Made by a program: the position numbers and the translations under genes
IMG/VR virus record: IMGVR_UViG_3300033120_000983
Span: 113 to 64,112 of that record
Direction: 5' to 3' (one strand)
Length of the DNA stretch: 64,000 bases
From: a virus
Taxonomy: Duplodnaviria > Caudoviricetes
Part shown: positions 9,929-62,746 of the stretch, one piece after another
Layout: every line of letters starts with the position of its first letter
Position numbering within the stretch: position 1 is the stretch's first letter
Notes under the pieces: model-generated
Told to the model about the DNA's origin: nothing
Databases searched by the model: none
What the model saw: only the letters and a program-made list of their open reading frames with translations

Positions 9929-10024
9929 GGACCGGACTGCACGACTTGTAATCGTGTCGGCCGGGGTCTGCGGGCGCCGCAATCCTCCTTCCCGGTAATG
10001 GGTCGCAACCTATCCGGTCCACCA
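9929..10024 (+). tRNA. Atypical tRNA-Thr(UGU)-like RNA: no D-arm, ~40-nt extra arm
   Basis: Acceptor GGACCGG/CCGGTCC + A-CCA; anticodon stem CACGA/TCGTG, loop CT-TGT-AA; T-like arm ATGGG-TCGCAA-CCTAT. Confidence 0.6.
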
Positions 10025-10113
10025 AATACGCCAACGGAACCGTTCCCCAAGGCGAAAAGCCCGGCTTCACCAGTGGGAGCCGGGCAACCTTTCCACCCAA
10101 ACCCAACACCACC

Positions 10114-10356
10114 ATGAGCCAAACACCCACCATCGGACGCATCGTCCACTTCACCATGCCGGACAACCAAGTCCGCCCCGCCATCGTCGTCCGCGTCCAT
10201 GACAAACAGGAAGGCCAGCCGCAGAAAGTGAACCTGCAGGTTCTCACGGACGGCCCCAACGACCCATCCACCAAGGACAGCCCCATGTGGAAGTCCGAAG
10301 TGATGGAAAGCCCGACGTCCGAGCAGGCTTGCTGGCACTGGCCCGCGAAAGAGTAA
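10114..10356 (+). CDS. Conserved phage hypothetical protein
   Basis: PTIGRIVHF...PAIVVRV...VNLQV..DG...WHWP motif. Confidence 0.8.
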   Translation: MSQTPTIGRIVHFTMPDNQVRPAIVVRVHDKQEGQPQKVNLQVLTDGPNDPSTKDSPMWKSEVMESPTSEQACWHWPAKE

Positions 10357-10517
10357 ACCGACTTCTCACCCATAAGGCCCAACGCAGTAGCGGAACCCAT
10401 CCAGAGCAGGCCATTTCCTGCGCGGACCGCGAAGAGAGTGGTAAGTGCGGGCCAACATACACACCAGCACCGCCCGACCCCGATAGTGGGGCCGGGCATC
10501 ACCCAACAAAACCGTCA

Positions 10518-10637
10518 ATGAACCTCTTTCTCCTCGCCACTGAAGCCAACATCCGCCTATCCGACGATGGAACGTGGGCGCTGGCTTTTGCCTTCACAAC
10601 AGCTTGGGAGGTGGCTTGGTATTTCAAATCCAAATGA
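10518..10637 (+). CDS. Small hydrophobic peptide (39 aa)
   Basis: ATG fused to the leader motif AACAAAACCGTCAATG; ATGA overlap with the next gene. Confidence 0.5.
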   Translation: MNLFLLATEANIRLSDDGTWALAFAFTTAWEVAWYFKSK

Positions 10638-11086
10638 AACGCGCCATCTACGTCGGAAAGCCAGAGGAATACCCCTACCAGTACCCGGTGCGGCACCCTC
10701 TTCACTATGGGATGACGGGTGAGGTTCACGATAACGACTGGATGAGGAACCTTGGGCTGTGCGGCTTCTACCCTGACGGCAACGATCACCCTGAGAATGC
10801 AGGAAGTTTCGTAGATCGCGAGGACGTTTACATTCCGTCGGAGGACGCCACGCGGCATTGCCCGAATCCCGAGTGGCCGGTTAAAAGCGCAATTATCGGC
10901 GCGGCATTGGTCAACCTTGCCGTGCATGGTGAAGCCAGAATGGGCGGCCGCGTGGTGAAGAAGGTGCCAATGCGCATGAACTACGGCGTCGGCGCTGTCG
11001 AACAATTCAAGAATCAAGGCAAAGCCCCGAATAAGTCCGGAATCACCCCATCAAACCCAGGGCATTGGAAGTCCATCAAGTCATGA
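10634..11086 (+). CDS. Hypothetical protein
   Basis: ATGA-coupled on both sides. Confidence 0.6.
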   Translation: MKRAIYVGKPEEYPYQYPVRHPLHYGMTGEVHDNDWMRNLGLCGFYPDGNDHPENAGSFVDREDVYIPSEDATRHCPNPEWPVKSAIIGAALVNLAVHGEARMGGRVVKKVPMRMNYGVGAVEQFKNQGKAPNKSGITPSNPGHWKSIKS

Positions 11087-11673
11087 AAATCCCAGCTTAC
11101 TTCTTCATTTTCGACGTCGAATCCCTTGGCCTGCACGGAGACGGCTTCGCGGTCGCTGGCGGCGTCTGGAAAGGCCTCGACCAATGCCTGATGGAGTTCG
11201 CCTACCACACGTCGCAGGACCGGGCGCTGATCGGCATCGCGGGAGACGCCGAATGGGTGAAGAAAAACGTCATCATTTCCCCTCAGTCCACACTGTGCGG
11301 CGGCACGGCCATCATGAATTCCCTTTTCTGGAATGAGTGGAAGCGGGCGAAGGAGCAATACCCCGGCATCGTCATGGCGGCGGAGTGCCTTTGGCCCGTA
11401 GAGGCGAGGCTTTTACAGAAGGCCGTGGATGAGGACCGCGATAATCGGAATTGGGAAGGACCTTACCCGATCCACGAAATCGCATCCTTCATGCTGGCGG
11501 CCGGCATGGATCCGATGGCGACCTACGAGCGCCGCGAGAATGAACTGCCCGCACACGAGCCGCTGGCTGACGCCCGGCTTTCGGCGCGTCTCCTCTTCGA
11601 AGCACTGGAGATACTGAAGGAAAGGGAAGGTGCGGAGTCACAGTATCGTGAAATCGAAGCACTGACCGAATAA
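11083..11673 (+). CDS. DEDDh 3'-5' exonuclease (DUF5051-like)
   Basis: FIFDVESLG (ExoI), HEPLADA (ExoIII). Confidence 0.8.
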   Translation: MKIPAYFFIFDVESLGLHGDGFAVAGGVWKGLDQCLMEFAYHTSQDRALIGIAGDAEWVKKNVIISPQSTLCGGTAIMNSLFWNEWKRAKEQYPGIVMAAECLWPVEARLLQKAVDEDRDNRNWEGPYPIHEIASFMLAAGMDPMATYERRENELPAHEPLADARLSARLLFEALEILKEREGAESQYREIEALTE

Positions 11674-11690
11674 ATCGTGTAACCTGCCCC

Positions 11691-11945
11691 ATGAAAGCGT
11701 CCTTGGATCGAGCCAAAGAGTTCATTTCCGAAAACCGGGCAGTCATCCGCCGGTGCGCTTTCCTTTTCTTCATCACTCTCGGCACCGGCAGTCTTTCCCT
11801 TGGAATCGCCGGTTACATCTGGCTGGCATACTTCACGCCATCGGGGTATCCTGATGAGGATGACGGCGAGGACGAGGAAGACGAGCCACAGCCGGACCCG
11901 CCGCGATACCACAATTCCCCACCACGAACCAAAACACCCGCATGA
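11691..11945 (+). CDS. Small membrane protein with acidic tail
   Basis: One TM helix followed by DEDDGEDEEDE. Confidence 0.6.
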   Translation: MKASLDRAKEFISENRAVIRRCAFLFFITLGTGSLSLGIAGYIWLAYFTPSGYPDEDDGEDEEDEPQPDPPRYHNSPPRTKTPA

Positions 11946-14971: not shown

Positions 14972-14974
14972 GCG

Positions 14975-15298: not shown

Positions 15299-15663
15299 AA
15301 CGCACCGCTCAGACCGCAAAATTCATCCATGGAATTGAAATGAAGCCGTGTCCTTCCTGCGGCGCGTTCAATATGCACTACAGGATGCCCATCCAAATGA
15401 AGGAGCCGATTTTGGCAACTGATGGAGCGAGGCAAATCCTTGGCAAGTGGGCGCGATCCATCAAAGACGGAAACACTCCATTGGAGGGGCCGTGTTTTAT
15501 GGTTTGCGAAGATTGCGGCCACAAAGGGCCGTCCATTGACTGCTCTGGCAGAACTTCCGAAGACGTGGGAAAAGACCCTTTGGTCGCATCTGAAATCAAA
15601 CGTATTTGGAACAGCCAGACTACTGTTTCACCGTCCCAATCTGATCAAGTGGCCGGGCCTTAA
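15295..15663 (+). CDS. Lar-like (restriction alleviation) zinc-ribbon protein
   Basis: MKPCPSCG...CEDCGHKGP...IKRIWN pattern. Confidence 0.6.
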   Translation: MKRTAQTAKFIHGIEMKPCPSCGAFNMHYRMPIQMKEPILATDGARQILGKWARSIKDGNTPLEGPCFMVCEDCGHKGPSIDCSGRTSEDVGKDPLVASEIKRIWNSQTTVSPSQSDQVAGP

Positions 15664-18600
15664 GCTCGTCGCGTGCCTGCTTCCGTGCATCCGAATAGGC
15701 GTCTTTGATCCGGTCCAGACTCTCCTGGTCACCCTTCAACGGCTCCCCCGCCAGCATCTTCCGCGCGAGTGTCCCGGCTCTGACATTCAGGAACCGGAGT
15801 GCCTGCGCGTTCAATTCGATGCGTTGTTCGCCGATTTCCAGCGTCTTACTGGCGCCCTGCGGTGCCCACGAGTCCGCGGGATTCGCCCGGTTCCAAGCCA
15901 GCAAGGCACGGTCCACGGGATGAACTGACTCCTCGGGCTGAATGGCGGAGGGAATGAGGAGGCGGGACACGGCATTTCCGGTTTTCTGCTTCTCCTCGCC
16001 GGAGCCCGGATTAACGCGCCCTGTGGTCCAATCGGGCATCGGCACCGCATCATACATCCACTCGCTCGAAGCGCCGTCAGGCACGCGGGAATCGCTGTTT
16101 CTGAGCGGCTGACGGATGATGTTCGGGACGATTCCCTGCAAGGCGAAGCGACGGGCCTTCTCGGCCATCGTGGGCCCGCCGCTTGTCTCGTCCATGCCGA
16201 GGAGGTCGGACATGGATTTCAGGCCGGACAGGAACGTCTTGTCGAGTGCCCCGCGCTTCACCGAATGGAAGACGGCATTCATCTTCTCTTGGGGGGTGCC
16301 GTCCGTTTTGCCGGAGCGGACGAAATCAGCTACGGTGCCGAGCACGGTCGCGATAGGCTCGATGCCGCCGTAGGGGATGACGGTGCGGCCGATCTTCACG
16401 ACATACGGTCCACCAAACGCGCGCTCCTGCAGTTCGCGTGCGCCCTTCTCCTTGGGGGCGGAACCGGTGATGAGGAAGCCTTTCTCGTAATCGTCGTCGT
16501 CGCCCTCGATGGCGGACATCAGAAGAGCGGTGCCGGTCCATGCGAAAAGCTGCTCGGCCAGGCCGCGGATAAGTGCGGGCGGCACTGTGGGGGCAACCTT
16601 CCCGCCCTGGAGTTTGACCCAGCCGGCTTTCGCCATTTGGGCACCCAGCACCACGGCACCCAGCGGGGAGCGGCGGATGCCTTCCCGATAGACGTTGTAG
16701 GGCGTCTTGGTGAAAGGGAAGAGCACGGTGGCGAGGAGCCGGATCGCGAGGTGTTTGGACTGACCTGCGGACACGATCATTTGCGGCACGGCATCGATGG
16801 GGTTTTGCGATGGGTCGAGTTTGTTCTGGAAGGTGTTGGTTTCCGCCTGACGGACGGCTGCTATCCACGCGGGGGAACCGGGCACGATCAAAAGTCGTTC
16901 CATGCGTTCATTGAAAGCTTGGGAGCCGGGGGTGAGCCCTTCTGCTTTGGTGATGCGGTAAGCGTGCGCGCCCGCCTCCATGGTGCCGAACAAACCTTTG
17001 AAGAAGCCGTCCGCTGCCATCAGCATGCGACCCGGCATCCGGACGATGCGGCCTTTGGTGCCACCGATTGCAATCTTCCGGTATTCGCCGACCGGACCGG
17101 TATCGATCAACGAAAGCTGCTCGTTGAGAACTTTGTGGGCAAAGTGGTCGGCTTCGGTGTCCCATGAAAGCGCCGCGAGTTTGATTCCCCGTTCCCATGC
17201 CGGCCCAAGGGCCTTCATGATAGCCCCGAACTCACCCATGGAGGCAGATTTATCGTTTTGGGCGACGACGTTGAGCATGGCTTCCATGCCGCGGGATGCG
17301 AATAGGTTCCATCCTCCGAAGAGCAAGTTGCTGGTGGCGTTCTTGAACTGCGTAACCGGGCCGGAGAGGAGGTTGTTGATCCAGTATTCGCGAAGCATGT
17401 CGAACGCCCCGGCCCCGGCGGCCTGCTGGATGCGCATTAGACGGTAAACGTCGTTCACGTCCGCGAGGTCGGCCCCCACGACGACGGACATTTCCACCGG
17501 CCGGCCGGGCTGTAGCAAGGGCCCGGGAAGTAGCGGCTGCTCCCCGCGGATGTCGCGAGGCATCGGCATCCGAACATAATCGTCGAGGGACATTCCCCCG
17601 GCGGCGGGCGGGACGGGCTTCCGGGTCACGACCTTCCGCTTGCCCTGTTGGGATTTGGGGAAGAAGCCGACGCGTTGCATGATGCGGTCCAACGCGAGTT
17701 CCTGCTCGACCGGGGAGAGGTCGGCGATGCCTCCGAAATCGAATTCGACCCATGGGTCAGGAGTAATGGCTTGGCTGTTGAGGACTCCGGTCTGTCCCTT
17801 GGCGGCGGCCGCGATGTTGACGCGGCGCCGAAGCTCCTCGCGGAATTTGGCGCGGGCCTTTTCGAAGGCGGATGCCGCAGCCCCTTCGGACAGTCCATGC
17901 TTGTCGGCAATGGTCTGGAAGGTGGCGGTGCCGTCGAGTGCATCGACTGCGGCCGCGACTTCCTTGTCCGCAAGCTGCCCTTTCAGGAAGGAGCCGACAA
18001 TATCCCGGCGGCGAGCCACCAGCATGCGGTCGCCGGCGAGAACGTCGTCGATGGTAAGCCCCATCTTGGCGAGGGCATCCTTGATGGCTTTGATGCGCTT
18101 GCCGTCTTTGGCGATGATGGCGGTGCGCTCCTCCGGCGTCTGTGCTGTTTCGAGTTCGGCGCGTACTTCCGGGGGTGGCATGAAGATGCCTTTCGCTACG
18201 GCTTCCCGGTGGCGTTCCTGCCGGGTTTTGAAGGGATCGACCCTGGCGCGGAGGGAACGGGCGGCTTCCGTGCCGGCGAGGCGGTTGGACCACACGAGCA
18301 ACTGCATCCGCTGCATCTGCTTTTGGTCCATGGGTTGCCGGGCTTCGAACTCGGTCATCATCTGCGCGGCCCGGGTCTGCTCGGGGGACAGGATGCCACC
18401 GCGGCGGCCGACGGAGGTGACGGCGCGGAAGGTGCCTTCGTAGTCGCGGGAGAGCATTTCGACGGCGGCCGCGTTCCACTGCTCGACCGTTTCCGCGGTC
18501 ACTTCCTCGGCATAAAGGTCGGACGTGGCCATGATGACGTCATCGCCTACCCCGCCGGCACCGGTTCCCGCCCCGAGGGCGCGTTCGGGGTCGATGATGG

Positions 18601-21600
18601 TGCGGTTCCCGGACTGCTCGAAACCGGCCTGGGCGGTGCGGGCGTCGATTTCGGCGGTATCGACTCCGAGTTGTTCGAGCAGACGTTTCGGGGATTGGGC
18701 GTAAAGAGGCTGGCCGACTTCAGCGACAGTCGATGCCATTTCCGGGGTGATTTGGACTTTCCACATTGGAATACCCGTGGCTGGAACCCCTGAATCCGCC
18801 GGGATAGCTGCGTATGCGGCTTGGTGGCGAGGATCCGTAATCCCATATTCCATCCTGGTTCGATCAGCTTCAGCCACTGCGGCTGTAAATTCCGCAGATG
18901 GACCTTTTCCTAAGTCCTGCTCGACCCGCCCCCCCCACTGCTTCACGTATTTAGCGACTTCTTTCGGGAGGATGTTATCGTAGAATCCCTTCATGCCCTC
19001 GCCGCCAACCATTGCCAATCCATCGCCGGACAAAACGTGAGCCTGCCGTCCCCGTGTAAGACTTTCCGGCTGCTTCTCAATCAGTTTTTTTGCCACTTCT
19101 TTTCCGATGTAATCCTCAATCTTTTCGGGGGCGACCGTTTCAGAAAGAACCGGGCTTCCATCAAGCCCATAGGCGCGAAGCTCTTGGTTGGATGGGTAGT
19201 ATTCCACTCGGGAAACCTGCTTCGACAGGTCGAATCGGTCGGCCTGAGTGGTGCCCGTGGTCCATCCAATCCACGACATAGAAGGGATAAAACTTGAATC
19301 GCCTGCATTACCATTTACTATGCCTGCATGGACATTCAAAAGACGTGCAAGTTCTGTGGATGCTGGTTCCTTGGCGGTCCCCGTAAAACCTTCTGTAGCG
19401 GTTCCTGCAAGACCCGATCGGGGATGCTGACCCGTGCTGGCGGACCCGTTCCTTGCGTGGCCTGTGGCGTTGTTTTCCAACCCAAAAACAAGGGAGCCAA
19501 GTTCTGCACCAGCACCTGTAGCAACCGGTTTAACGCCCCCTTGGTCGCTGACAAAATTGGCGATGCCAACCGGGGCAAGAAGCCCCACAACTTCACGGGC
19601 AGTGAGAGCACTTGCCTTCAGTGTGGGAAGAATTTCTTTATCGCTCCGTCCAGAAAGGGCCGTGTTCAGTGCTGCTCCAAGGCGTGCGGAGGTCTTCACA
19701 AGCGCGTCGATGACCCCGTTAGCTACGTCAGGACGGCCATCGACGGGGAGCGTATTCCAGACCACATCAGAGCCGCCAATCAACTGCTCGGGGCTAAGTT
19801 TATGGTCGGCAAGGTAACGCACCACATCGACAGGGACCGCCGCAACAATAGCCCGGCGAACTTGATCGTGTTTCCCGGCCAGTCGGAGCACGCCAGCCTC
19901 CACTGGGCCGAGCGTCGAGCGGGACGGATATTTAGCCCCCAAGAGGTCATCGCTAAGTTTCCCGATGCTGTCTGGCTTGGTGGCGTCTTTCCATGATGGA
20001 CTCCCTGCGGCGACGGCATCACGGAGGGCGCGCTTGAACATTTGAAGCGGCCATGTTTTCTCGAATGGCATAGAAGGCGTCTTCCCTTCATGGATGGTGC
20101 CTGATTCCTTGCGAATCTGTTGTCCGCGGTCCGACTGGATTTCTTCTATGAACAAGCCCGGGGAGCCTGACGAATCCTTTCGTTCGTTGGTGCGCAAGTG
20201 AGCGACGTAATTTGGAACGTCGGTGAAGTGGGGTGAAGTGTAGGGGCGATCAACAACTTCATTCCGGGCCATCAGTTGGCGTTGCTGGTCTTCGGTTAGA
20301 TCATAGATACTGTCCACGCCAAACATTTCCTTCGCCAGTTGGCGGGGGGTCTTTTTCTGGTCTTCGGTGCGTTTTGGAGGCATGGAGAGCACGATCTCGC
20401 GGTAGTTTTCACCCCCGGGAAGCTGGTATTGGGCGTATTGGCGGGCATCGGACTCCGAGCTGCTGTCTGCGATATTCCAGAGGCCATTTCTCTCCACGAA
20501 CCGCAGGTTTGGGCGGAGTTCGTTCTGGAAGTTCATTAATTCACGGTCCCCGCTGGCCTGCTCCACCAACTCCTCTTTTGTGGGGAATCCTTCGGTGAAA
20601 ACCATCGTTTCTGGACCGTTCACTACCTCCTCAAACTGCACGCGCCCCTCATTCCGCATGAAATTGAGCACGGCCTCCTTCGTGACGGTGCCTCCTTGGA
20701 AGTCGAGCCACGGGACAACGCCGGACCATTTGAGTTCGTCGGCCTTCACGTTCGCGAGAAGTGCTTTGACCTGCTCCTTGGAGGCGCGGGCCGGCATCTT
20801 CGCTTCGAGCATCTTTACGGCGGCGCTGTAGAAGCCGTCGGGCGAAAGAGTGGCGGCGGCCAAGGCGGCGGGGGACTGAGCCTGTAGCGATTCACTCGCC
20901 GGCCAACGGACATAAAAAGAACCCTTCCCGGTCCCGATTTGAATACCGTCGGCGTCTGGGTAAATGGACTTCAGAAACTCGCCAGTATCAGGGCCAAACC
21001 GCGCATTGAAATCGGACGCCCGGCGTGCTTTGACTGCTTCGAACATCACGTATCCCATGAAAGTTTCGAAAGCGTTTTCTGTAGGGAAATAAAGTGGGTT
21101 TTCCGGCAGGTTTCCAGCGGAAGGAAGAATCTTAACTTCCCCAAATTGAGCGGCTTGGGCGCGGTCCGTGGTGGTGTAGCGCCCCTTCCCGTAGGTGTAG
21201 GAATTCGAGCCAGATTTGTTGGATTCTCCACGAAAGACATTTTTAGGCGTTGGGCCTTTTCCTCCAATGGACGGTTGCGGCCTGACAGAAAGCACAGCTT
21301 GGCGCTCTTCATTCGTCAGCGGAGAAATGACCGGCTGAGACTGAATGGAAGGCGTGTCGGACAATGGCAGTTCCGGCGTCGCCTGCTCGGCGGCCTTCCG
21401 GGCGGCATCGACTTCACGGGCGCGCGCGGCGTTCGCTCCAGCAAGTTCCCGGGCCTCGCGGGCCAGGCGCTGGGCTTCGCTTTCAGCGGCCAGATTGAAG
21501 GGTTCGTCTTGGGCACCGGCAAGGAAGTCCTGCTGGCCGTCCGCGGAGACGACGCCGGCGGGTGCGGGCGCGGCTTCCATGCCAGCGCTCGGGAACTGTG

Positions 21601-24600
21601 CCACGGCTTCGAGGAGTTCACGGATCGGCGCATCCAGACGGATGACGTCCATGGGTTCGCCCGGCGTTTCCTGCATGGCGGCAAGCCACTGGTGGTGTCC
21701 GTCGAGCACATGGTCGTCGGAGGATACCAAGATGGCCCTGTTGCTTTCGCCGACCCACTCGCGCGCCTGTTTGACCTTGGCGGGCGAGTATTCGGCCTGC
21801 GTGGGGTGCAGGGAGCCCGGGAGGGCGGTTTCCCGCGTGAATTCGATGCCGCCGGCCCGGAGGAAGTTGGCGAGTGCGCCGCGGTGCTCGGTTTTGATCT
21901 GCGGCATCTGCTCGCGGGGAATACCGAGGGAGCGGGAGTCTTCCGCGAAGGCGGTCCACTCCTTGTCGATCTTTTCGCCGGCGAGGGATTCGGGGGTGTT
22001 GGTGACAACCGGTTCACCACTACCGGCGTTGTCGCTCATTTCTGGCTGATTTTGCTCAACAACACTCCAATCTGGATCGTTCGGCGCGTAGTCCTCCACG
22101 AAAAGAACCGTCGAGGGGTCGATTTCCTGCACTCCAAAGCGCGTCCCGTCCTTCAAGGTGATGCCCTGCAGCTTCCCGTCCGGCCCGGTTTCGAGGGATT
22201 GAACAACAACGCGGTCGCCTTCGATGATGAGCGTTTCCCCGACTTCGAGGTCGCGGGCATTCACCTTCACGCGGCCGTTCTCGACGGCGGCGTAAAACTC
22301 CACGGCCTGTCGCTCCTGTGCGTCGGCTCGTTCGTCGGCGGCATCCACCTTCCCGGGTGCCTCATCGAGGGCCATGAGTTCGGCGGTCACGCGGTCCCAT
22401 ACCTGCCGGCCGTAGAAATCCTTTGGATCCTCGCCAAGCGTCTCCGCGGCCTGCTGAAGTGCTTGGTCGGGGCTGTTGGTGTTGGACTGGTTCACCATGC
22501 GGCGGATGGCGTCCTGGGCGATGGGACGGCCCTGCCAGTCAGACTGCCGGGGCACGTTGTCCCATTCCCCGAGGTTCCGGAGGACGGCGCGGTCTTTCTC
22601 GGAAAGGCGTCCGCCATTCTTCTTCCGCATCGCCGCGAGGCGCGCGGCGGGGTTGCGGGGACTGATGCCGGCTTCCACGAGCGCGGTGACGACGGGGGAG
22701 TTTTCGGGGTCGAGACGGAACCGGGCTTTTTCGGTCCGTTTCTTCTTTGGTGCCCTACTGCCCTCTACTGCCCTCGTGCTGCCCTCTGCGGAAAGGGCAC
22801 GAACTCCGGCTTCCAGCATATCCGCGGCGGCGGTGACGCGGGCGATGGTGTCGGGGCTGGCCTTCTGTTTCTTGAGGGTGGCGGCGAGGTCGCGGAAGTA
22901 GGTCAGGAGCTTTTCAAGAGCGGCGGACAGCTTTGCCAGCACAGCGGCCGGCATTGTCTGCTCAGTCAGGACCGGACGGCCTTTCTTCGGCTTCCGGCCG
23001 GAGAGGCGTTGCTGCACCACCATCCGGAAGAATTCGTGCCCGAGATTTAGCGATTTGTTGCTCGACGGGTAGGCGGCGCGCACCTGGGCCTGCGTCTCTG
23101 CCGGCAGGGCGTCGAAAAGCTCCGTCATGTTGATTTCCCCGCGGGATTCCATCTGGACGGCAACGGAATGAATGACTTCCTCCTGAATGGCGCGCTCGAC
23201 CCACTGGAGCGAGTTGCTTCCGAGCGCATCGACGGATTCCGCCAAGGCCTTGAAGTCCAGCCGGAGCGATGGCGTGGCGGTGCCGGAATCGACCTGAACG
23301 CCGCCTGAGCCGGAATTCTGCGTTGTCGTGAAGCCACCGGGGAACGCCGCCTGCCAGCGGGTTGCCTCTTTGGAGAGCGCCTTAGCGACGGCTTGGTATC
23401 GGACGGCTTCCTTTTTGGAGGGCCGTCGGCCGGAGGCGGATGTGATGGCCTTGGCGATGCTGGCGGGGGAAATACCCGTAGGCGGTGCAGGTTTGACAGC
23501 TTCCTTCGGGGCAACTTGTAAGGAATACTTACCAGTTGGAATCACTTCGGGGGCTTTTGTGATTTTATCGGCGGGCGCTGGACTCATTTTGCCGGTGACG
23601 GGCGCGACCGCGTTAACGCTCCGGATCATCTTCCCGGGATACTGGCGCATGGCCGCGACTTCGGCATCCTCGCGGGTGGCGGCGGCGATAGTCACCGCGT
23701 CGGCAACGTCGTCAATTTCCACCTCGAAAGTAGCGTCCTGGCCGGGTTTCGGCCCCACCGGTTTTTCTTGTGGTTGCGTGGATTCAGCGATTTTGGTGCT
23801 GGTTTCAGCACCACCGGGTTCTTGCGGCTGCCGCGCGGCTTCGGTGGCGGTGACATTGGCAATGACGGCCGCGCGGCGCTCTGCCTCCGACTGTCCGATG
23901 AGCGGTGCAGTCGCGGGGAAAAGCTCCGTCATTCGGTCGATGGTGCTTTGGCCGATCACCAGTTCGCCGTTCTCGATGGTCACACGCGCGGTGCCGTCCG
24001 GGGAGTCTGCTTTGCCGCCGGCCTTCAGTTCGCCGCCGGGGCCGCGGGAAAGTCCAACGAGCGCTAGGGCGGCATTGTCGAGAGAATCCACCTTTCCGGA
24101 TGCGATGGCGACCAACGCTTTCGCCCGGGCCTTGTCCTGCTCGAAGCCGGCGGCGTCCCCGGGTGTTTCGAGTCCGTTGGCGTCAGTAATGGGCGGCGGC
24201 TCTGCGGTGTCGATTTCCTCCTCGGCGGCGGACACGAAAGAATCCCGCAGTTCGGAGCGGATCCCGGCAATGTATTCCTCCCGCTGGCCATATGCCTGCG
24301 CGAGCTGGTTGTTGCTGTAGAGGGTCTGCGCCTTCGACTTTGCGCCAGCGAGTTGTTCCTGTCCGTCCACGATCCGGGCATCAAATTCCGCGATTTTCGA
24401 AAGGACTTCCGGGGTGCGCTCCTCCATGGGCGAACCGGCAAGGGTTTCCGTGATGATGGCGGGGGAGTGCTGGGCGGCGATTTGCTGACCGAGTTCCCGG
24501 CGGACCGTGGCGGATTTGATTTCCTTCTCGGCATTGAACTTTGCTTTTACGCCGCCGGCAACGTCGGTCGCCGCATTCACGCCACCACCCAACAGGAAGG

Positions 24601-27256: not shown

Positions 27257-27285
27257 TTTTTAAACGAGGGGACGGGGAATGTAAA
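27257..27285 (-). promoter_or_regulatory. Sigma70-like promoter for the giant gene
   Basis: TTTACA-N17-TAAAAA upstream of ATG 27244. Confidence 0.45.
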
Positions 27286-27324
27286 ATTCGGGAGTGGACA
27301 AAACGGCGGAGTGTGGAAGTATCC

Positions 27325-27403
27325 CTCACAATCGTGGGGTGTTGGTTCGATTCCAACTCCGGGGTTTCCCGGATAGAATAATGGTAGTTCACGCGATTTT
27401 TAC
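27325..27403 (+). tRNA. Apparently circularly permuted tRNA gene (3' half precedes 5' half); anticodon UUU (Lys) or CAC (Val)
   Basis: 3' half AA-TCGTG-GGGT-GTTGG-TTCGATT-CCAAC-TCCGGGG-T (27330-27365), then 5' half TCCCGGA-TA-GAAT-AATGGTA-GTTC-A-CGCGA-TTTTTAC (27367-27403); acceptor pairs 7/7, anticodon stem 5/5, D-stem 4/4. Confidence 0.65.
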
Positions 27404-27466
27404 GCCGGGAGTTGGATGAAACGGGGCCGCTTTGCGATTGCCAACGCCATCCGATTCCCGGCACCA
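27404..27466 (+). ncRNA. CCA-tailed 15-bp hairpin (minihelix-like RNA)
   Basis: GCCGGGAGTTGGATG pairs with CATCCGATTCCCGGC (with G-U pairs), followed by ACCA; 1 nt before the next tRNA. Confidence 0.45.
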
Positions 27467-27467
27467 T

Positions 27468-27541
27468 TCCAGAGTAGATTAACAGTAGATCAAGAGCCTC
27501 ATAAGCTCTCCGTGAAGGTGCAATTCCTTCCTCTGGGTCCA
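27468..27541 (+). tRNA. tRNA with CAU anticodon (elongator Met or Ile2)
   Basis: Full cloverleaf: TCCAGAG/CTCTGGG, D-stem GATT/GATC, AGAGC-CTCATAA-GCTCT, GAAGG-TGCAATT-CCTTC, U73, encoded CCA. Confidence 0.85.
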
Positions 27542-27585
27542 ATTTTTGAAGAGAGGCAACGTAGTGAGCGCCGGTCAGGCCGCGA

Positions 27586-27628
27586 AGGCGGGCCGGAATT
27601 ATCAGGTGCAATTCCGGCCCGCGCCTCA
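27586..27628. ncRNA. Long hairpin with tRNA T-loop-like GGTGCAATTCC; minihelix or bidirectional terminator
   Basis: 13-bp perfect IR GCGGGCCGGAATT (27588)/AATTCCGGCCCGC (27610) at the convergence of the tRNA cluster and the 27626 gene. Confidence 0.4.
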
Positions 27629-28432
27629 GTAATCCTCTTCCCACTCACGACCACCGGGATAGGGCGCGCCTTTTCTGCGAGGTTTTGGGAACACCACGTT
27701 GTCCGAAGGCGTCTTTGGCTGAATGCCGGGCTGGATCGGGATCAATTCCGCGCCATCAATGGACATGGCGGAGGAGGAGGATGGAGTCGGCGGCGGGAGC
27801 GAGGGCGCTGGCGGTGCGGGGACGGGGCTTGAGATATCTTCCATTCTTGCTTTGGATTCATATCGGGCCTTTTCCTCTGGGGAGAGCTTGGCATAGCTTT
27901 CGCGCGCGGCGAGCACCGCCTGGTCAGCTGTTTTGCCTTTGGATGGACCCTCCGTAAACCGGGCACCGGCACGGCGACCGCGGAAGCCAGAGAGACGCCG
28001 GGGCGAGCCTCCGGTCTGTTCGTCCACGTAAGGAGCCAAACCAGCGTAGGACTGCATCGTGTCGCCGCCGCCTGGGGTCTGAGGTGCGCCATCGGCTGGC
28101 CGACGTGGCTGGAGGTTCCGGAACGCCATGGTGCCGAGTTGATTCTGCACCGGGTCATTGAAGCCGCGGGCGGCGCCGGGGGTGTTCTGCGCCATGGTGG
28201 CCGGGGACTGCGGTCGGCGCGGCGAGGGTAGCGGGCCTTGGAAGCCGGTGCCGCCGTAGGCTTCGCTCCGCAGTTGGTCCATGGGCTTCGCCATGTTCGC
28301 TGTAGCGACGTTTCGGCGGGAGGACGGCAAGTCAGCCGCGACGGCGGAACCAACGCCCTGCGGGGCACGCATTGGAAGGGGAGTCATGCCGCCTCCGGCA
28401 TCGGCGCGGCGTGGTTTTGGGAGAATGGCCAT
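27626..28432 (-). CDS. Pro/Ala/Gly-rich hypothetical protein (possible internal virion protein)
   Basis: Low-complexity ORF in the structural operon. Confidence 0.65.
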   Translation of the reverse strand: MAILPKPRRADAGGGMTPLPMRAPQGVGSAVAADLPSSRRNVATANMAKPMDQLRSEAYGGTGFQGPLPSPRRPQSPATMAQNTPGAARGFNDPVQNQLGTMAFRNLQPRRPADGAPQTPGGGDTMQSYAGLAPYVDEQTGGSPRRLSGFRGRRAGARFTEGPSKGKTADQAVLAARESYAKLSPEEKARYESKARMEDISSPVPAPPAPSLPPPTPSSSSAMSIDGAELIPIQPGIQPKTPSDNVVFPKPRRKGAPYPGGREWEEDY

Positions 28433-29162: not shown

Positions 29163-29774
29163 TTATACTTTTGTTTCGCTTGGAGCTAATTTCCGTGATC
29201 TGCCGCAGCGAATGTTGCGAATCTGGTGGGCGCTTACACCAAGTTCCAGTGCGAGTTCAGTAGCCGGAAGAAATGAAGATCGGATATAGTTACATTGGGC
29301 GTCCGACAGCTTGGCAGACTTGTTTTTTTCGCCATGCGCCAACCTCTCGGGGTGCAAGCGTGCTCCGTTGGCGTCACCGCGAGCAAGTTTTTCCGGATGG
29401 CGTCTCGCTCCGTTTGCGTCCCCTATCGCTTTCTTGGCGCGCCCCTTGGCGATCATGTCATCTTGGTTGTCTTGGTTTGATCCAGCAAAAAGGTGGGCTG
29501 GATTTACGCAAGACGGGTTATCGCAGCGGTGCAGGCAGTGGCTCTTTTCCTCTGAGAAGACGCCGCTTGCAACACTAAACGCGATCCGGTGCGCCGAGTA
29601 GATTTTTCCCCCGACGCCAAAAAGACCGTAGCCCTTCGCATTCTTACTGCCAAGCCATAGCCAGCATTGTTCTGTTTGACCATCAACCAATGGTCCATTT
29701 CGGTCTATCTTTCTCCAAAAGTTGATCTTGTTCTTTGAGTTGAGGGCAGGTATCGAGGTTGCAGCAGCTGACAT
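29163..29774 (-). CDS. HNH homing endonuclease (HNH_3 type)
   Basis: CWLWLG...GYG...AHRIAF...CLHRCDNPSCVNPAHL; C-terminal GDANGARxHPE repeat. Confidence 0.9.
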   Translation of the reverse strand: MSAAATSIPALNSKNKINFWRKIDRNGPLVDGQTEQCWLWLGSKNAKGYGLFGVGGKIYSAHRIAFSVASGVFSEEKSHCLHRCDNPSCVNPAHLFAGSNQDNQDDMIAKGRAKKAIGDANGARRHPEKLARGDANGARLHPERLAHGEKNKSAKLSDAQCNYIRSSFLPATELALELGVSAHQIRNIRCGRSRKLAPSETKV

Positions 29775-29875
29775 AGTTGTTGTATGTTGGATGTTAGGGT
29801 CGCCCTGGTGCTGAATACACCAAGGCGACCCGTTTAATTGGATCAGGAAAAAAACTACGGCAAGCGAGACGATGC

Positions 29876-30169
29876 TCATTTTTTCTCGGGGGAAATGCGT
29901 TTTGCTACGAGATGACCGATCCATCCGATAGCGTATGATACCCATGGCCAAGCCGCGATTTTGGTGCCGAAAGCGGCGGTGATTGCTTTGGCTATGGCTG
30001 CCGCCTTATTTGAATTCGATTGGCTTGAGGAGCGGAGATCGATACTCCACTGGATAACTTTGGCAAAATCGTCAGCGGAAAGGCCGGGATTCCCGTCCAC
30101 TTTGGAGAGGGCGAGCACGGCGGCGCGGAATGCAGATGCTATGGGCGAAAAAAAGGTGGAGAATTTCAT
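29876..30169 (-). CDS. Hypothetical protein, lysis cassette
   Basis: Amphipathic with a C-terminal hydrophobic helix; coupled to the upstream gene. Confidence 0.6.
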   Translation of the reverse strand: MKFSTFFSPIASAFRAAVLALSKVDGNPGLSADDFAKVIQWSIDLRSSSQSNSNKAAAIAKAITAAFGTKIAAWPWVSYAIGWIGHLVAKRISPEKK

Positions 30170-56243: not shown

Positions 56244-56275
56244 AGTTTCGACGGTTTGGTTTTTGGGTGAAAGTT

Positions 56276-59961: not shown

Positions 59962-60131
59962 GGTTTTTGCTCAAACGATTCACATTCCTCAGCGAAACTG
60001 ATTTCGATTTCCCTCATTTCGTCATCTGGCCAGTGAGCCCACGACTCGTGGTCGCAACGGATTTTTCCGGGAGCCTTAATCGGGCCACAGGAACGGCAAT
60101 TCGTGCAGGATTTTTCAGGGGTGGTGCTCAT
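59958..60131 (-). CDS. Small Cys-rich protein (57 aa)
   Basis: Manual translation MSTTPEKSCTNC...C...CESF; ATGA overlap with the helicase. Confidence 0.55.
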   Translation of the reverse strand: MSTTPEKSCTNCRSCGPIKAPGKIRCDHESWAHWPDDEMREIEISFAEECESFEQKP

Positions 60132-60146
60132 TGGTTTGGATGGAGC

Positions 60147-60593: not shown

Positions 60594-60686
60594 GACGGTT
60601 TTGGTTTGGGTGGTGGTGCCCGGCGAAAACGCCCTTCATCAGGGAATGTTTCCGCCGGGCTTGGATTCCGGCAACAAATGAGAGGG

Positions 60687-61115: not shown

Positions 61116-61181
61116 AACGGTTTTGTTTGGAAGTGCCGGGGGGAAGCCCGCCCCGGCTCGGGTTTGTTTTGATGCGGTCGA

Positions 61182-62042
61182 TTATTCGGCGCTGGCTTCC
61201 TTGCTGGCGTCCCATCCGCGGAGCCAGTCAGCGGCTTCAGTGGAGCCCTCGGGGTATCCACAGTCCTCGCGGGAGGCCCCGGAGTCGTAGGCATCCCATC
61301 CGTTCACGTAGGTCGGGCTTTCGATCTTTTCGTGATCGGGTTCCGGCGCGGGGTCATTGATCGGCGGGCCGTCCCCAATGTCCAAATCAAGGTCAAGGTC
61401 CAGCGCGCCGCCGTCCTCGGACTCAGCCTGCTCGCCTTCCTGCGGCGGCGTCTCGTGGAGCAAGGCGAGGTCCATCTGGCGGTCGTGGTCCGAGATTTTC
61501 GCCACCGACACGACTTCGCCCGTCTCGTCCCGGATTAAAGCCTTCATCTCCGGATGGTAGATTTCTTGCCCGAACTCGTCTTTGCCGGAGCACTCGAATA
61601 CCCACGTGCAGGGAACCATCTTCTCGCGGCCGCCCTCGGCAAGCCGGCTGGAGTAGTCGGACAGTTCCTTGTCGAGGTCGTCGATAGATGACTGGTGGCG
61701 CGCGGCGGTGTTTTTCTTCTCGGCGCGGATATCTTCCCGTCGGCTGATGACCTTTCCCATTTCGTCGGCCATTTCAGCGCGCTCCTCAGTGGTGAACTTC
61801 ACATTGACGCTGCGGCGTTCGGTGTGGACCGGCCATTTGGAGGTGCGGCCGGTTTCGGCGGGCATCTGTTCTTCCGTGAGGTCGAGATTTTCCAGCGTCG
61901 TCGGCGTGCCGGTGTCGGGAATCGCGTTATCGTCGGCTTGGCCGGAGGAGGGTTTGGGCTCCGGGGATGGAGCGATTGTCTCGGCCGGGATTTCTCCGGG
62001 GGCGAGGGCTGCGGGGTTTTTTGTGCGTCGTTTGGTGGCCAT
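61182..62042 (-). CDS. Phage protein with C-terminal ribosome-modulation-factor-like motif
   Basis: Central helical hairpin; ends YVNGWDAYDSG..REDCGY......WLRGW. Confidence 0.65.
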   Translation of the reverse strand: MATKRRTKNPAALAPGEIPAETIAPSPEPKPSSGQADDNAIPDTGTPTTLENLDLTEEQMPAETGRTSKWPVHTERRSVNVKFTTEERAEMADEMGKVISRREDIRAEKKNTAARHQSSIDDLDKELSDYSSRLAEGGREKMVPCTWVFECSGKDEFGQEIYHPEMKALIRDETGEVVSVAKISDHDRQMDLALLHETPPQEGEQAESEDGGALDLDLDLDIGDGPPINDPAPEPDHEKIESPTYVNGWDAYDSGASREDCGYPEGSTEAADWLRGWDASKEASAE

Positions 62043-62083
62043 GATGGGCGGTGTTCTGGTTTTGGTTGGGTTCGGGGAGAGAG

Positions 62084-62431
62084 TTATCGGACGAGGGAAG
62101 CTAATTCCTGCACCTGTTTCTGGATGGACGCTTGGAGTTCAGCTATCCGATTTTGCCGTGCGGTTTCCGCCTCTTGCTCAAGGCGCGCTGCTTTATGCTC
62201 GGGGGTTTCGCTGGGGATGGCTGAGAAAAACCTGTCTCCCTTTCCGTTTGGCTGCACGGTCATAGGGTCGAATCCCATCCGTGCTCCAAGTCGCGCCCAG
62301 GCCGCATTGGCGTTTTCCTGTTGGCTGCTTGGAGCCATTCCCCAGATGATTATCATGGGGACAGGTTTCATGGATTCAAGAAGATCGGCCAAATCGGCCT
62401 CGGTCATTTCGTAGTTTGTTCGCGGATACAT
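62084..62431 (-). CDS. Conserved hypothetical protein
   Basis: PVPMI...S.QENANAAW..LG..MGFD..TV motif. Confidence 0.7.
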   Translation of the reverse strand: MYPRTNYEMTEADLADLLESMKPVPMIIIWGMAPSSQQENANAAWARLGARMGFDPMTVQPNGKGDRFFSAIPSETPEHKAARLEQEAETARQNRIAELQASIQKQVQELASLVR

Positions 62432-62466
62432 TGTTTTGACGGTTTGGTTTTAGATGGGAGTAAAAT

Positions 62467-62637
62467 TCAATCTTTGATGAATTCGTCGGTCTTGTTGGAG
62501 GCGATCCCCTCACTCAGCGCGACCGTGCCTTGATCGACGCAGGCCATGCAATGAGGGTGGCAGTTATTACTAAGCCACTTCATCAGCGGTTTGGCGGCTT
62601 CAAGCATTTCGGCGGACTGTGTTTGTGTTATTGTCAT
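62467..62637 (-). CDS. Small conserved phage protein (56 aa)
   Basis: Manual translation ...AAKPLMKWLSNNCHPHC...EG...T.EF..D. Confidence 0.6.
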   Translation of the reverse strand: MTITQTQSAEMLEAAKPLMKWLSNNCHPHCMACVDQGTVALSEGIASNKTDEFIKD

Positions 62638-62659
62638 GGCGGGTTGGGTTGTGGGAGAG

Positions 62660-62746
62660 TGGAGCCGCAGGCGGGAATTGCACCGAAAGGAATGACCTTC
62701 GCGCCGTCCGGTTAAAAGCCGGATGCTCTCTTTGAGCTACTGCGGC
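62660..62746 (-). tRNA. Atypical tRNA-Lys(UUU) with a 15-nt hairpin interrupting the T-stem
   Basis: GCCGCAG/CTGCGGC + T-CCA; D-arm GCTC-AAAGA-GAGC; TCCGG-CTTTTAA-CCGGA; T-stem GCG[AAGGTCATTCCTTTC]GG-TGCAATT-CCCGC. Confidence 0.7.

What the first reader, a model, noticed from the sequence alone, without database searches (positions are those of the whole stretch)
9929..62746. A dispersed family of architecture-variant tRNA-like RNAs: possible tRNA-decoy or anti-defence system
Seen: besides one normal cloverleaf (CAU), the genome has three RNAs that keep a perfect acceptor stem and a textbook anticodon loop but each breaks the cloverleaf differently: permuted halves (27325), no D-arm plus a large extra arm (Thr UGU, 9929), and a hairpin-split T-stem (Lys UUU, 62660). 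Two more acceptor-like minihelices flank the tRNA(CAU). Shared features suggest a common origin: T-loop TGCAATT (27519, 27607, 62682), anticodon stem CRCGA/TCGTG (9940, 27392), U73 in three. Established: phage tRNAs can offset host tRNA-cleaving defences (T5 tRNA-Lys against PARIS; T4 repairs PrrC-cut tRNA-Lys). Inference: ends and anticodon loops are conserved while the elbow is remodelled, which suggests selection as nuclease decoys, uncharged-tRNA sensor mimics or nuclease-resistant substitutes rather than decay. Standard tRNA finders would miss most of them.
Basis: partly seen in the sequence, partly recalled or inferred. Interest (0 to 1): 0.85.

Follow-up and report, generated by a model that had tools for sequence, protein, structure and literature searches.

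The report
Mixed tRNAs and tRNA mimics, phage
The five "variant tRNA-like RNAs" in this phage contig are real sequences but are four unrelated things: two tRNAs of a widespread subtype (one with an odd insertion), a Y-RNA-like tRNA mimic, tRNA-derived hairpins, and a separate conserved folded element. Nothing yet shows they work as decoys.

Summary
The window is a 64-kb IMG/VR phage contig.

- **tRNA-Met(CAU), 27468-27541:** canonical. Its UGCAAUU T-loop and GG-less D-loop mark a widespread tRNA subtype: 45 tRNAs in IMG/VR and 111 tRNA(CAU) genes in cellular genomes, mostly Patescibacteria.
- **tRNA-Lys(UUU), 62660-62746(-):** has the same elbow plus a clean 15-nt hairpin insert in the T stem. 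This was the only such case found.
- **"Permuted tRNA", 27323-27411:** T arm, loop-capped acceptor, D arm and a closing stem. This is the layout of the YrlA (bacterial Y RNA) tRNA-like domain. It scores 28.5 bits against Rfam YrlA. Phage units next to Ro60 genes score 33-40 bits. The layout recurs about 80 times more often than chance in IMG/VR, including in complete genomes without Ro. This record has no Ro gene or Ro-binding motif.
- **Locus context:** these RNAs lie in a hypervariable tRNA islet. The closest relative (88% identity in the flanking protein) has no tRNA at that site.
- **The 9929 element:** a conserved fold tied to a resolvase-like/HTH gene. Its closing stem covaries and its ends look like an RNase P substrate, but the "Thr anticodon loop" is absent from homologues.

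No expression or decoy evidence was obtained.

The parts
27323..27411 (+). Circularly permuted tRNA-like module (YrlA-like). Outer stem 27323-27327/27407-27411. Closing stem 27330-27336/27392-27398. Variable loop 27337-27340. T arm 27341-27357 with canonical loop UUCGAUU. Acceptor hairpin 27358-27373 capped by GUUU. U8 A9 at 27374-27375. D arm 27376-27390 with a GG loop.
   Evidence: The sequence is. The Rfam YrlA hit covers 27333-27396 at 28.5 bits, model positions 23-86 of 114 (E 3.7e-4 locally, 0.052 for the whole window). The same layout with 7 of 7 acceptor pairs occurs in 10 other IMG/VR loci, against about 0.13 expected. The YrlA-like fold evaluates to -24.5 kcal/mol against an MFE of -30.3.
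27404..27466 (+). Long hairpin (15 bp, 27404-27418 with 27448-27462) followed by ACCA. It ends 1 nt before tRNA-Met and overlaps the outer stem of the permuted module.
   Evidence: Sequence. MFE fold of the wider context.
27468..27541 (+). tRNA-Met(CAU). Canonical cloverleaf with U1-G72, U73, encoded CCA, T-loop UGCAAUU and D-loop AACAGUA (no GG).
   Evidence: ARAGORN. Rfam tRNA 51.7 bits.
27567..27630 (+). T-arm-derived hairpin ('minihelix 2'). A 13-bp stem at 27588-27600/27610-27622 carries the GGTGCAATTCC motif (27605-27615). It has no CCA end.
   Evidence: A similar hairpin with a UGCAAUU loop sits at the same position in relative L147.
62660..62746 (-). tRNA-Lys(UUU), 87 nt. D-loop AAAGA, T-loop UGCAAUU, U73 and encoded CCA. 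A 15-nt hairpin insert (62685-62699) splits the 5' strand of the T stem.
   Evidence: ARAGORN and Rfam at 44.4 bits. The cloverleaf is restored when the insert is removed. No other such insert was found among IMG/VR tRNA-Lys genes with this T-loop.
9922..10024 (+). Conserved structured element immediately after the stop codon of ORF 9289-9921. Leader CCAAUUU at 9922-9928. P1 pairs 9928-9936 with 10013-10021. Hairpin H1 at 9939-9957 (loop CUUGUAA). A branched middle arm. The last hairpin, 9998-10013, abuts the P1 3' strand. Tail CC(A) at 10022-10024.
   Evidence: Homologues L008, L010 and L009 keep the position, the flanks and a covarying P1.
10059..10085 (+). Terminator-like GC hairpin after the 9929 element. 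It is absent from L008 and L010.
9289..9921 (+). 210-aa gene always linked to the 9929-type element. The protein has an N-terminal alpha/beta domain and a C-terminal HTH, and its predicted fold is closest to small serine recombinases. No conserved serine nucleophile is present.

Best explanation
The finding groups four different things.

1. **Two real phage tRNAs.** tRNA-Met(CAU) and tRNA-Lys(UUU) belong to a widespread tRNA subtype whose elbow is altered (T-loop UGCAAUU paired with a GG-less D-loop). They probably supplement or replace host tRNAs during infection. For Lys(UUU) this may include replacing a tRNA cut by host anticodon nucleases. The Lys copy carries a 15-nt hairpin insert in its T stem that resembles a decayed copy of a GAAGG/CCUUC T arm. 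I read this as an illegitimate T-arm duplication. Whether the gene still works is open.

2. **A circularly permuted tRNA-like RNA at 27323-27411.** It has the architecture of the tRNA-like domain of YrlA-class Y RNAs: T arm, loop-capped acceptor, D arm, closed by a stem in place of the anticodon arm. It would fold into an L-shape that cannot be aminoacylated. It would act as a tRNA mimic that binds tRNA-recognising proteins, such as host Ro/Rsr or tRNA-processing and modifying enzymes.

3. **Hairpins flanking tRNA-Met.** These are T-arm or acceptor-derived debris, or leader and trailer structures of the tRNA precursor, within a rapidly turning-over tRNA islet upstream of the giant virion-protein gene.

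4. **The 9929 element.** It is not a tRNA-Thr. It is a conserved folded RNA attached to the 3' end of a resolvase-like/HTH gene. Its invariant U(-1), G(+1)-C, A73 and CC, together with a hairpin stacked on the closing stem, make it a likely RNase P-type processing signal or stable 3' RNA.

**Shown:** the sequences, the folds, the family distributions and the covariation of P1. **Inferred:** all functions.
For: **tRNAs**
- Both are called by ARAGORN and Rfam.
- In IMG/VR, 45 of 119 hits to GGTGCAATTCC-N11-CCA are tRNAs that end at that CCA. They cover Met, Lys, Thr, Arg, His, Phe, Trp and others, and 39 of the 45 lack GG in the D-loop.
- In cellular genomes, 111 tRNA(CAU) genes carry the motif, mostly in Saccharibacteria and other Patescibacteria. 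In one such genome only that one tRNA carries it.
- Removing the insert restores the Lys cloverleaf.

**Permuted element**
- It gives a partial YrlA hit.
- A pattern scan found 11 of 127 'T-loop to D-arm' matches with 7 of 7 complementary capped acceptors, where about 0.13 are expected.
- Two of these lie beside TROVE/Ro60 genes on the same strand, and a third record also encodes TROVE.
- Those units score 32.7-47 bits on YrlA, all below the gathering score of 69, like the window's 28.5.
- Four complete genomes with such units have no TROVE gene.

**Islet turnover**
- L007: the flanking protein is 88% identical, and no tRNA is present.
- L005: a different tRNA-Met plus a sub-threshold tRNA.
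- L006: ARAGORN calls tRNA-Gly and tRNA-Glu on the other strand; Rfam confirms only the Glu.
- L147 and L148: tRNA-Trp.

**9929 element**
- P1 is 9 bp in the window, L008 and L010, with five positions changed on both sides.
- H1 covaries between L008 and L010.
- The flanks U|G and ACC are invariant.
Against: - No transcription, processing or binding data exist for any element.
- The YrlA score is far below Rfam's threshold, and its whole-window E-value is only 0.052.
- The Ro-binding motif GNCGAAN0-1G (PMC4201824) and a Ro gene are both absent, although the record is only about 66% complete.
- The thermodynamic fold of the permuted region is not better than shuffled sequence (z -0.89), and alternative pairings compete.
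- No homologue of the permuted element itself was found, so its closing stem has no covariation support.
- The 9929 class has only 3-4 members. The interiors of the window copy and the L008/L010 copies are unalignable, so the 'compensatory' P1 changes could reflect replacement of a cassette bounded by inverted repeats rather than RNA constraint.
- The T-stem insert in tRNA-Lys is unique, so a pseudogene cannot be excluded.
Confidence: 0.6

Rival explanations
1. One reading: all five elements are one family of remodelled tRNAs kept by selection as decoys, sensor mimics or nuclease-resistant substitutes against tRNA-targeting defence systems.
For: - Three elements share an exact 11-mer T-arm motif.
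- Lys(UUU)-type features recur: the tRNA-Lys gene, the U-run at the anticodon position of the permuted element, and, by my own reading of the sequence, a UUU triplet at the anticodon position of the sub-threshold tRNA-like element next to tRNA-Met in L005.
- Capped-acceptor mimics with intact anticodon hairpins (UGU, UUU, GAA) exist in other phages.
- The 9929 element sits beside Tad2-like and, in L008, Sequestin anti-defence genes.
- Phage tRNAs are known counter-defences (PMC10264068, PMC11555353).
Against: - The T-loop motif is a general tRNA subtype, not a private signature.
- The permuted and 9929 elements do not carry it.
- The anticodon-like loop of the 9929 element is not conserved.
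- The cluster is missing from the closest relative.
- No defence-related test was possible.
Confidence: 0.12
2. The odd elements are non-functional debris. On this view the permuted unit, the hairpins and the split T-stem tRNA-Lys are tRNA pseudogenes and recombination scars in a fast-evolving tRNA insertion hotspot.
For: - The islet content differs in every relative and is empty in the closest one.
- The Lys insert is unique.
- The insert and minihelix 2 look like partial T-arm copies.
- The fold z-scores are weak.
- L155 shows a direct repeat at the ends of its permuted unit, as expected from a tandem duplication.
Against: - Capped-acceptor units with perfect 7-bp stems and stable tetraloops recur far above chance, and some sit next to Ro60 genes.
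- The T and D arms of the window unit are intact and canonical.
- The tRNA-Lys keeps perfect acceptor, D and anticodon stems and an encoded CCA.
Confidence: 0.2
3. The 9929 element acts at the DNA level. It would be a short segment bounded by 9-bp inverted repeats that serves as a recombination, inversion or binding site for the adjacent resolvase-like HTH protein.
For: - The neighbouring 210-aa protein's predicted fold is closest to the Tn3 and gamma-delta resolvases, with a C-terminal HTH (Foldseek E 1.5e-5, probability 1.0).
- Gene and element are always adjacent, even where the downstream gene differs (L009).
- The interior is replaced wholesale between relatives while the terminal inverted repeats persist.
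- A roughly 90% identical wastewater relative carries 815 other nucleotides in place of 9693-10098.
Against: - No conserved serine nucleophile is present in the four homologues.
- There is no Pfam, PDB or PHROG sequence match to recombinases.
- The model is only moderate (pLDDT 70), and the catalytic-domain TM-score is about 0.56.
- The internal hairpins H1 and the last hairpin also covary, and they use G-U pairs that work only on the + strand RNA.
- A segment of 76-130 bp is short for invertase action.
Confidence: 0.2
4. 27323-27411 is a true permuted tRNA-Lys gene. Its transcript would be circularised or ligated and re-cut at the acceptor to give a functional tRNA, as in the red alga Cyanidioschyzon merolae.
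For: The halves pair 7 of 7 in the acceptor and 5 of 5 in the anticodon stem. Joining the 3' U-run to the 5' AA would give a UUUUUAA loop with anticodon UUU.
Against: - No such maturation pathway is known in bacteria or phages (my own knowledge).
- Two extra nucleotides (AC) on each side do not fit a 7-nt loop.
- The acceptor strands are separated by only 1-2 nt beyond U73.
- The linear fold closes into a 7-bp stem plus an outer stem, like YrlA.
Confidence: 0.03

Closest known systems
YrlA / bacterial and phage Y RNAs (Rfam RF02553; Chen et al. 2014, PMC4201824)
   Same: The order is T arm, closed acceptor-like hairpin, U-A, D arm, enclosed by a stem made from the 5' and 3' strands. The T and D loops are canonical. 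The class occurs in phages. The Rfam score is comparable to phage units that sit next to Ro60 genes.
   Different: The score is below the gathering threshold. There is no GNCGAAN0-1G Ro-binding motif and no TROVE/Ro60 gene in the record. The element sits in a tRNA islet rather than beside a Ro gene.
Circularly permuted tRNA genes of Cyanidioschyzon merolae
   Same: The 3' half lies upstream of the 5' half, and the two halves are complementary.
   Different: The host is a eukaryotic alga with splicing-type maturation. Here the junction lacks a clean 7-nt anticodon loop, and no maturation machinery is evident.
Phage tRNAs that counter tRNA-targeting defence (T5 tRNAs against PARIS and retron PtuAB; anticodon-loop variants; PMC10264068, PMC11555353, PMC11455837)
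   Same: The phage encodes a tRNA-Lys(UUU), the isoacceptor targeted by PrrC- and PARIS-type nucleases.
   Different: Here the anticodon loop is canonical (CUUUUAA). The variation lies in the elbow and T stem, which is not a described evasion route.
tRNA-like RNase P substrates embedded in longer transcripts (mascRNA of MALAT1; C4 RNA of phages P1/P7; viral tRNA-like structures). Named from my own knowledge.
   Same: The 9929 class has U(-1), a G1-C72 pair, A73-C74-C75 and a hairpin stacked on the terminal stem. It lies directly at the 3' end of an ORF.
   Different: It has no T-loop/D-loop elbow in the window copy, a variable number of internal arms, and no experimental cleavage data.
Invertons and res sites of small serine recombinases
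   Same: Short inverted repeats lie next to a gene whose predicted fold resembles a resolvase with an HTH domain.
   Different: The catalytic serine is not conserved, the segment is very short, and the internal hairpins covary as in RNA.

Membership tests
tRNA (RF00005) | Covariance-model score above the gathering threshold (29 bits) and a cloverleaf called by ARAGORN | tested here: met
   Met scores 51.7 bits and Lys 44.4 bits. The 9929 element and 27323-27411 are not called as tRNA.
tRNA (RF00005), applied to tRNA-Lys 62660-62746 | Contiguous 5-bp T stem with a 7-nt T loop | tested here: not met
   A 15-nt insert lies between positions 51 and 52. ARAGORN can only draw a 2-3-bp T stem with a long variable loop. 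The stem becomes perfect only once the insert is removed.
tRNA, applied to the 9929 element ('tRNA-Thr') | D arm, T loop, and an anticodon loop conserved among homologues | tested here: not met
   There is no D arm or T loop. The homologous hairpins have loops GAAGGA (L008) and GAGAGA (L010).
YrlA Y RNA (RF02553) | tRNA-like domain in the order T arm, closed acceptor hairpin, D arm, inside a stem | tested here: met
   The Infernal alignment covers model positions 23-86. The acceptor pairs 7 of 7 and the closing stem 5 of 5.
YrlA Y RNA (RF02553) | Rfam gathering score of 69 bits | tested here: not met
   The window scores 28.5 bits. The Ro60-adjacent phage units L196 and L266 also fail, at 39.6 and 33.4 bits.
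YrlA Y RNA (RF02553) | 5' motif GNCGAAN0-1G implicated in Rsr/Ro60 binding (PMC4201824) | tested here: not met
   A regular-expression search of 75 nt on each side found none. The nearest match is GGCGGAG, with one mismatch.
YrlA Y RNA (RF02553) | Encoded next to a Ro60/TROVE gene | tested here: not met
   There is no TROVE match in the 64-kb record at E <= 1. The record is estimated at 66% complete, so a distant Ro gene cannot be excluded.
YrlA Y RNA (RF02553) | Binds Ro60 and carries tRNA-type modifications | not testable with these tools
   This needs immunoprecipitation and modification mapping.
Permuted tRNA gene (C. merolae type) | Halves that rejoin into a canonical 7-nt anticodon loop through a processing motif | tested here: inconclusive
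   The stems pair, but the junction residues do not give a clean 7-nt loop. No bulge-helix-bulge search was possible.
Bacterial RNase P substrate (tRNA-like end) | U at -1, G1-C72, R73-C74-C75, and an acceptor stem stacked on a hairpin | tested here: met
   These features are invariant in the window, L008 and L010 while the rest of P1 covaries. The last hairpin abuts the P1 3' strand. Cleavage itself was not tested.
Small serine recombinase (resolvase/invertase), applied to ORF 9289-9921 | Conserved catalytic serine near the N terminus, and a sequence match to PF00239 | tested here: not met
   The candidate serines vary among the four homologues (S/S/P/T and S/E/S/A). There are no Pfam or PDB sequence hits. 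Only the fold is similar.

The most novel reading that the evidence does not exclude
Phages, including ones that lack Ro60, carry loop-capped, circularly permuted tRNA mimics that cannot be charged or have their tails cut. These would serve as sponges or decoys for tRNA-directed host immunity, or for sensors of uncharged tRNA. On this reading the present phage combines such a mimic with an elbow-variant, T-stem-remodelled tRNA-Lys(UUU) as a Lys-centred counter-defence set.
Probability: 0.12. Interest if true: 0.8.

Novelty: new variant of a known kind. Interest (0 to 1): 0.42.

Why it matters
- If the permuted unit is expressed, it extends YrlA-type tRNA mimicry to phages that have no Ro60 gene. 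Four complete IMG/VR genomes show the same situation. This raises the question of what such mimics bind during infection.
- The split T-stem tRNA-Lys would show, if functional, how much remodelling the tRNA elbow tolerates.
- The 9929 class may be a new small structured-RNA motif that marks a processing site in an anti-defence gene block.
- None of this is established. The main practical result is that the striking 'one family of decoys' reading does not hold.

Tried and rejected
- **Known phages:** megablast, blastn and tblastn against the GenBank phage collection found no relative. The only hit was a 73% match of 80 nt to an Alcaligenes phage.
- **IMG/VR by terminase:** one 45% relative that is not syntenic upstream.
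- **JGI metagenome contigs:** two scans with the 210-aa protein and with its alignment found nothing.
- **IMG/VR by the 9929 5' motif:** only chance hits. The motif is single-copy in the window.
- **Host tRNA or att-site idea:** an exact search for the T-arm plus acceptor strand of the permuted element in 185,579 genomes gave no match, so a copied host tRNA 3' end is not supported.
- **tRNA-Lys conservation:** the only relative of the upstream gene has no intergenic spacer. Contigs carrying relatives of the downstream gene stop before the tRNA position. Conservation therefore could not be tested.
- **Expression:** no RNA holder was listed. The four runs laid were contigs, probably DNA, and show neither RNA ends nor expression. 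They reveal a roughly 90% identical wastewater relative whose contigs end at 27311.
- **Neighbouring genes:** Pfam and PHROG searches gave no function.
- **Promoter:** the promoter-like match at 27259-27287 (+) lies in a stretch conserved in relatives without tRNAs. It may belong to the giant gene on the other strand, so it was not used as evidence.
- **Thermodynamics:** folding alone does not discriminate between the competing structures at 27318-27416.

Full report
**Context.** The window is nearly all of a 64,112-bp linear IMG/VR virus record that CheckV estimates at 66% complete. G+C is about 0.59. It encodes a large terminase, a major head protein, a portal, a helicase and a 3,874-aa ORF at 15620-27244 on the minus strand. 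No close relative exists in the GenBank phage collection. IMG/VR holds only a distant one. Relatives at 50-88% protein identity were recovered from Logan and ENA assemblies through flanking genes.

**The two tRNAs.** ARAGORN and Rfam both find tRNA-Met(CAU) at 27468-27541(+) at 51.7 bits and tRNA-Lys(UUU) at 62746-62660(-) at 44.4 bits.
- Met is a clean cloverleaf with U1-G72, U73 and an encoded CCA. Its T-loop is UGCAAUU and its D-loop has no GG.
- Lys has perfect acceptor, D and anticodon stems, the loop CUUUUAA, D-loop AAAGA and the same T-loop. Fifteen nucleotides (62685-62699) interrupt the 5' strand of its T stem.
- ARAGORN copes with this by drawing a long variable loop and a 2-3-bp T stem. 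Deleting the 15 nt in silico gives a perfect 72-nt tRNA-Lys.
- The insert, AAGG-UCAUU-CCUU plus UC, resembles a T arm with a GAAGG/CCUUC stem, as in the window's tRNA-Met and in an IMG/VR tRNA-Lys, that has lost two loop bases. I therefore read it as a partial T-arm duplication.

**The 'shared T-loop' is a general subtype.** GGTGCAATTCC occurs exactly three times in the window, so those three elements are related. The motif is not private to this genome.
Of these, 45 are ARAGORN tRNAs ending at that CCA. Most are Met(CAU), but Lys, Thr, Arg, His, Phe, Trp, Ile, Pro and Tyr also occur.
- Of the 45, 39 lack GG in the D-loop and instead show an A-G-U-A pattern. T-loop and D-loop therefore change together.
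A total of 111 tRNA(CAU) genes carry the motif, mostly in Saccharibacteria and other Patescibacteria and often on large chromosomal contigs.
- In one such genome, only that single tRNA among the 33 distinct tRNAs that ARAGORN recovered from the fetched loci (Rfam found 44 tRNA matches in the genome) has this T-loop.
- A scan for Lys(UUU) anticodon loops followed by this T-loop found five normal tRNA-Lys genes. The window's gene was the only one with a T-stem insert.

**The permuted element.** At 27323-27411 the order is as follows:
- strand AAUCGUG, then the variable loop GGGU;
- a canonical T arm, GUUGG-UUCGAUU-CCAAC;
- the acceptor hairpin UCCGGG-GUUU-CCCGGA (7 pairs if the U-G pair is counted);
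- U-A, then a canonical D arm, GAAU-AAUGGUA-GUUC;
- strand CGCGAUU, which pairs with the first strand.

An outer CCCUC/GGGAG stem can close the whole unit.

Rfam's best non-tRNA match is YrlA, the bacterial Y RNA whose effector domain mimics tRNA. The hit is 28.5 bits over model positions 23-86, which is exactly the tRNA-like domain.

To test whether this layout is more than an accident, I scanned IMG/VR for a T-loop followed 17-27 nt later by a D arm.
- Of 127 matches, 11 (the window included) have 7 of 7 complementary acceptor strands closed by a 2-7-nt loop, often UUCG or GAAA. About 0.13 are expected by chance.
- Their minimum-energy folds show flanks pairing into a long stem around the T arm, capped acceptor and D arm. 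Several also have a complete anticodon-like hairpin.
- Two of these units (L196, L266) lie within about 1 kb of, and on the same strand as, a TROVE/Ro60 gene. A third record also encodes one.
- On the YrlA model these units score 32.7-47 bits, all below the gathering score of 69. The window's 28.5 bits is in the range of genuine Ro60-adjacent phage units.
- Four records classed as 100% complete carry such units and have no TROVE gene.

The window record has no TROVE match and no GNCGAAN0-1G motif, the proposed Ro contact (PMC4201824). I therefore file the element as YrlA-like in architecture but not as a demonstrated YrlA member. No homologue of this particular element was found, so its closing stem has no comparative support. 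Thermodynamic folding is indecisive.

**The locus is a hypervariable tRNA islet.** The 381-nt spacer between the giant gene and ORF 27626-28432 differs in every relative:

| Relative | Flanking protein identity | Content of the spacer |
|---|---|---|
| L007 | 88% | 179-nt spacer, no tRNA |
| L005 | 62% | A different, canonical-elbow tRNA-Met plus a 25-bit sub-threshold tRNA |
| L006 | 58% | ARAGORN calls tRNA-Gly and tRNA-Glu on the opposite strand (Rfam confirms only the Glu) |
| L147, L148 | 55% | tRNA-Trp, plus a hairpin with a UGCAAUU loop where the window has minihelix 2 |

Contigs of a roughly 90% identical wastewater relative end at 27311, the edge of the islet.

The two hairpins flanking tRNA-Met are best read as parts of the tRNA precursor or as T-arm-derived remnants. 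One is 27404-27466, with 15 bp followed by ACCA and ending 1 nt before the tRNA. The other is 27588-27622, which carries the T-arm 11-mer.

**The 9929 element.** It starts 7 nt after the stop codon of ORF 9289-9921 and folds as a four-way junction (z -2.2). Three homologues of that ORF (52-60% identity) each have an element at the same place.

The leader CCAAUYU, the first base pairs and the 3' ACC are conserved. The closing stem is 9 bp in three of the four:

| Source | P1 5' strand | P1 3' strand |
|---|---|---|
| Window | UGGACCGGA | UCCGGUCCA |
| L008 | UGGAUGCUG | CAGCAUCCA |
| L010 | UGGAUGCGG | CCGCAUCCA |

- Five positions are changed on both sides.
- The first hairpin covaries between L008 and L010 (GCGCU/AGCGU against GCGUG/CACGC) and uses a G-U pair. 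A last hairpin abuts the 3' strand of P1 in all three.
- The interior length varies (94, 148 and 96 nt in total). The loop of the first hairpin is CUUGUAA only in the window, so the 'Thr anticodon' is not a conserved feature.
- The invariant U(-1), G1-C72, A73, C74 and C75, with a hairpin stacked on the terminal stem, match what bacterial RNase P recognises (established knowledge). I therefore favour a tRNA-like processing signal or a stable 3' RNA.
- Rfam has no match for any of the four copies.

**A rival for the 9929 element.** The linked 210-aa protein was modelled at pLDDT 70. Its fold is closest to the Tn3 and gamma-delta resolvases with a C-terminal HTH (Foldseek E 1.5e-5). This raises a DNA-level reading in which inverted repeats act as a recombination or binding site.
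- Against this, the catalytic serine is not conserved and no sequence-level recombinase match exists.
- The internal hairpins covary as expected for RNA.
- The wastewater relative has 815 different nucleotides in place of 9693-10098, which fits cassette-like turnover.
- The neighbourhood includes a Tad2-like domain protein. In L008 it also includes a Sequestin-family protein.

**Verdict.** The sequences are as described, with corrections. The unifying interpretation fails on three points: the shared motif is generic, two of the five elements lack it, and the features said to be conserved are either not conserved (the 9929 anticodon loop) or missing from close relatives (the islet). What survives is a phage tRNA-Lys(UUU) that could serve counter-defence, as shown for other phages (PMC10264068, PMC11555353, PMC11455837). 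A genuine tRNA mimic of the YrlA type in a record without Ro also survives. No expression or functional evidence could be obtained.

Noticed in passing
IMG/VR loci L030-L146; genome loci L356-L475: A tRNA subtype with T-loop UGCAAUU and a GG-less D-loop (A-G-U-A pattern) is common in viral contigs across many anticodons. In cellular genomes it occurs in tRNA(CAU) genes, above all in Saccharibacteria and other Patescibacteria. In one Saccharibacteria genome only one tRNA carries it.
   Followed up: partly
IMG/VR loci L155, L170, L172, L193, L196, L212, L217, L240, L264, L266: These loci carry loop-capped, permuted tRNA-like units. Several include a full anticodon hairpin (UGU, UUU or GAA) inside a long closing stem. 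Three of the ten records encode Ro60/TROVE, and four complete genomes do not. All units score below the Rfam YrlA threshold.
   Followed up: partly
L006:1338-1403(+) and L009:829-892(+): The DUF3800-VIII RNA motif (52.3 and 59.3 bits, above its gathering score of 40.2) lies just upstream of the giant-protein gene in two relatives. The window has no such hit.
   Followed up: no
L005:10923-10994(-): A sub-threshold tRNA-like element (25.1 bits) sits directly after that relative's tRNA-Met. By my own reading, its anticodon-position loop contains UUU with G at position 33.
   Followed up: no
window 9289-9921(+): The 210-aa protein has a predicted resolvase-like alpha/beta domain plus a C-terminal HTH but no conserved serine nucleophile. 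It carries an invariant FQGRKDQCRNA motif.
   Followed up: partly
window 10085-10113 and 62637-62660(-); L008:6325-6356: C/A-rich leaders without a Shine-Dalgarno sequence (for example CCACCCAAACCCAACACCACC-ATG) precede genes in this phage and its relatives.
   Followed up: no
window 29163-29951(-): An HNH homing-endonuclease-like ORF (Pfam HNH_3 and zf-His_Me_endon) lies 1.5 kb from the tRNA islet.
   Followed up: no
window 7353-8945(+); L008:4289-5499: A Tad2-like domain (29.6 bits) is present in a 530-aa protein upstream of the 9929 element. The relative L008 has a Sequestin-family gene at the same place. Together these suggest an anti-defence gene block.
   Followed up: no
window 61182-62042(-): The C-terminal 40 residues of this ORF resemble ribosome modulation factor (Pfam RMF, 23.5 bits, below the cut-off of 27.9).
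   Followed up: no
window 9693-10098 and 27311-27909: A roughly 90% identical phage is abundant in wastewater runs. It replaces 9693-10098 with 815 other nucleotides, and its contigs break at the edge of the tRNA islet.
   Followed up: no
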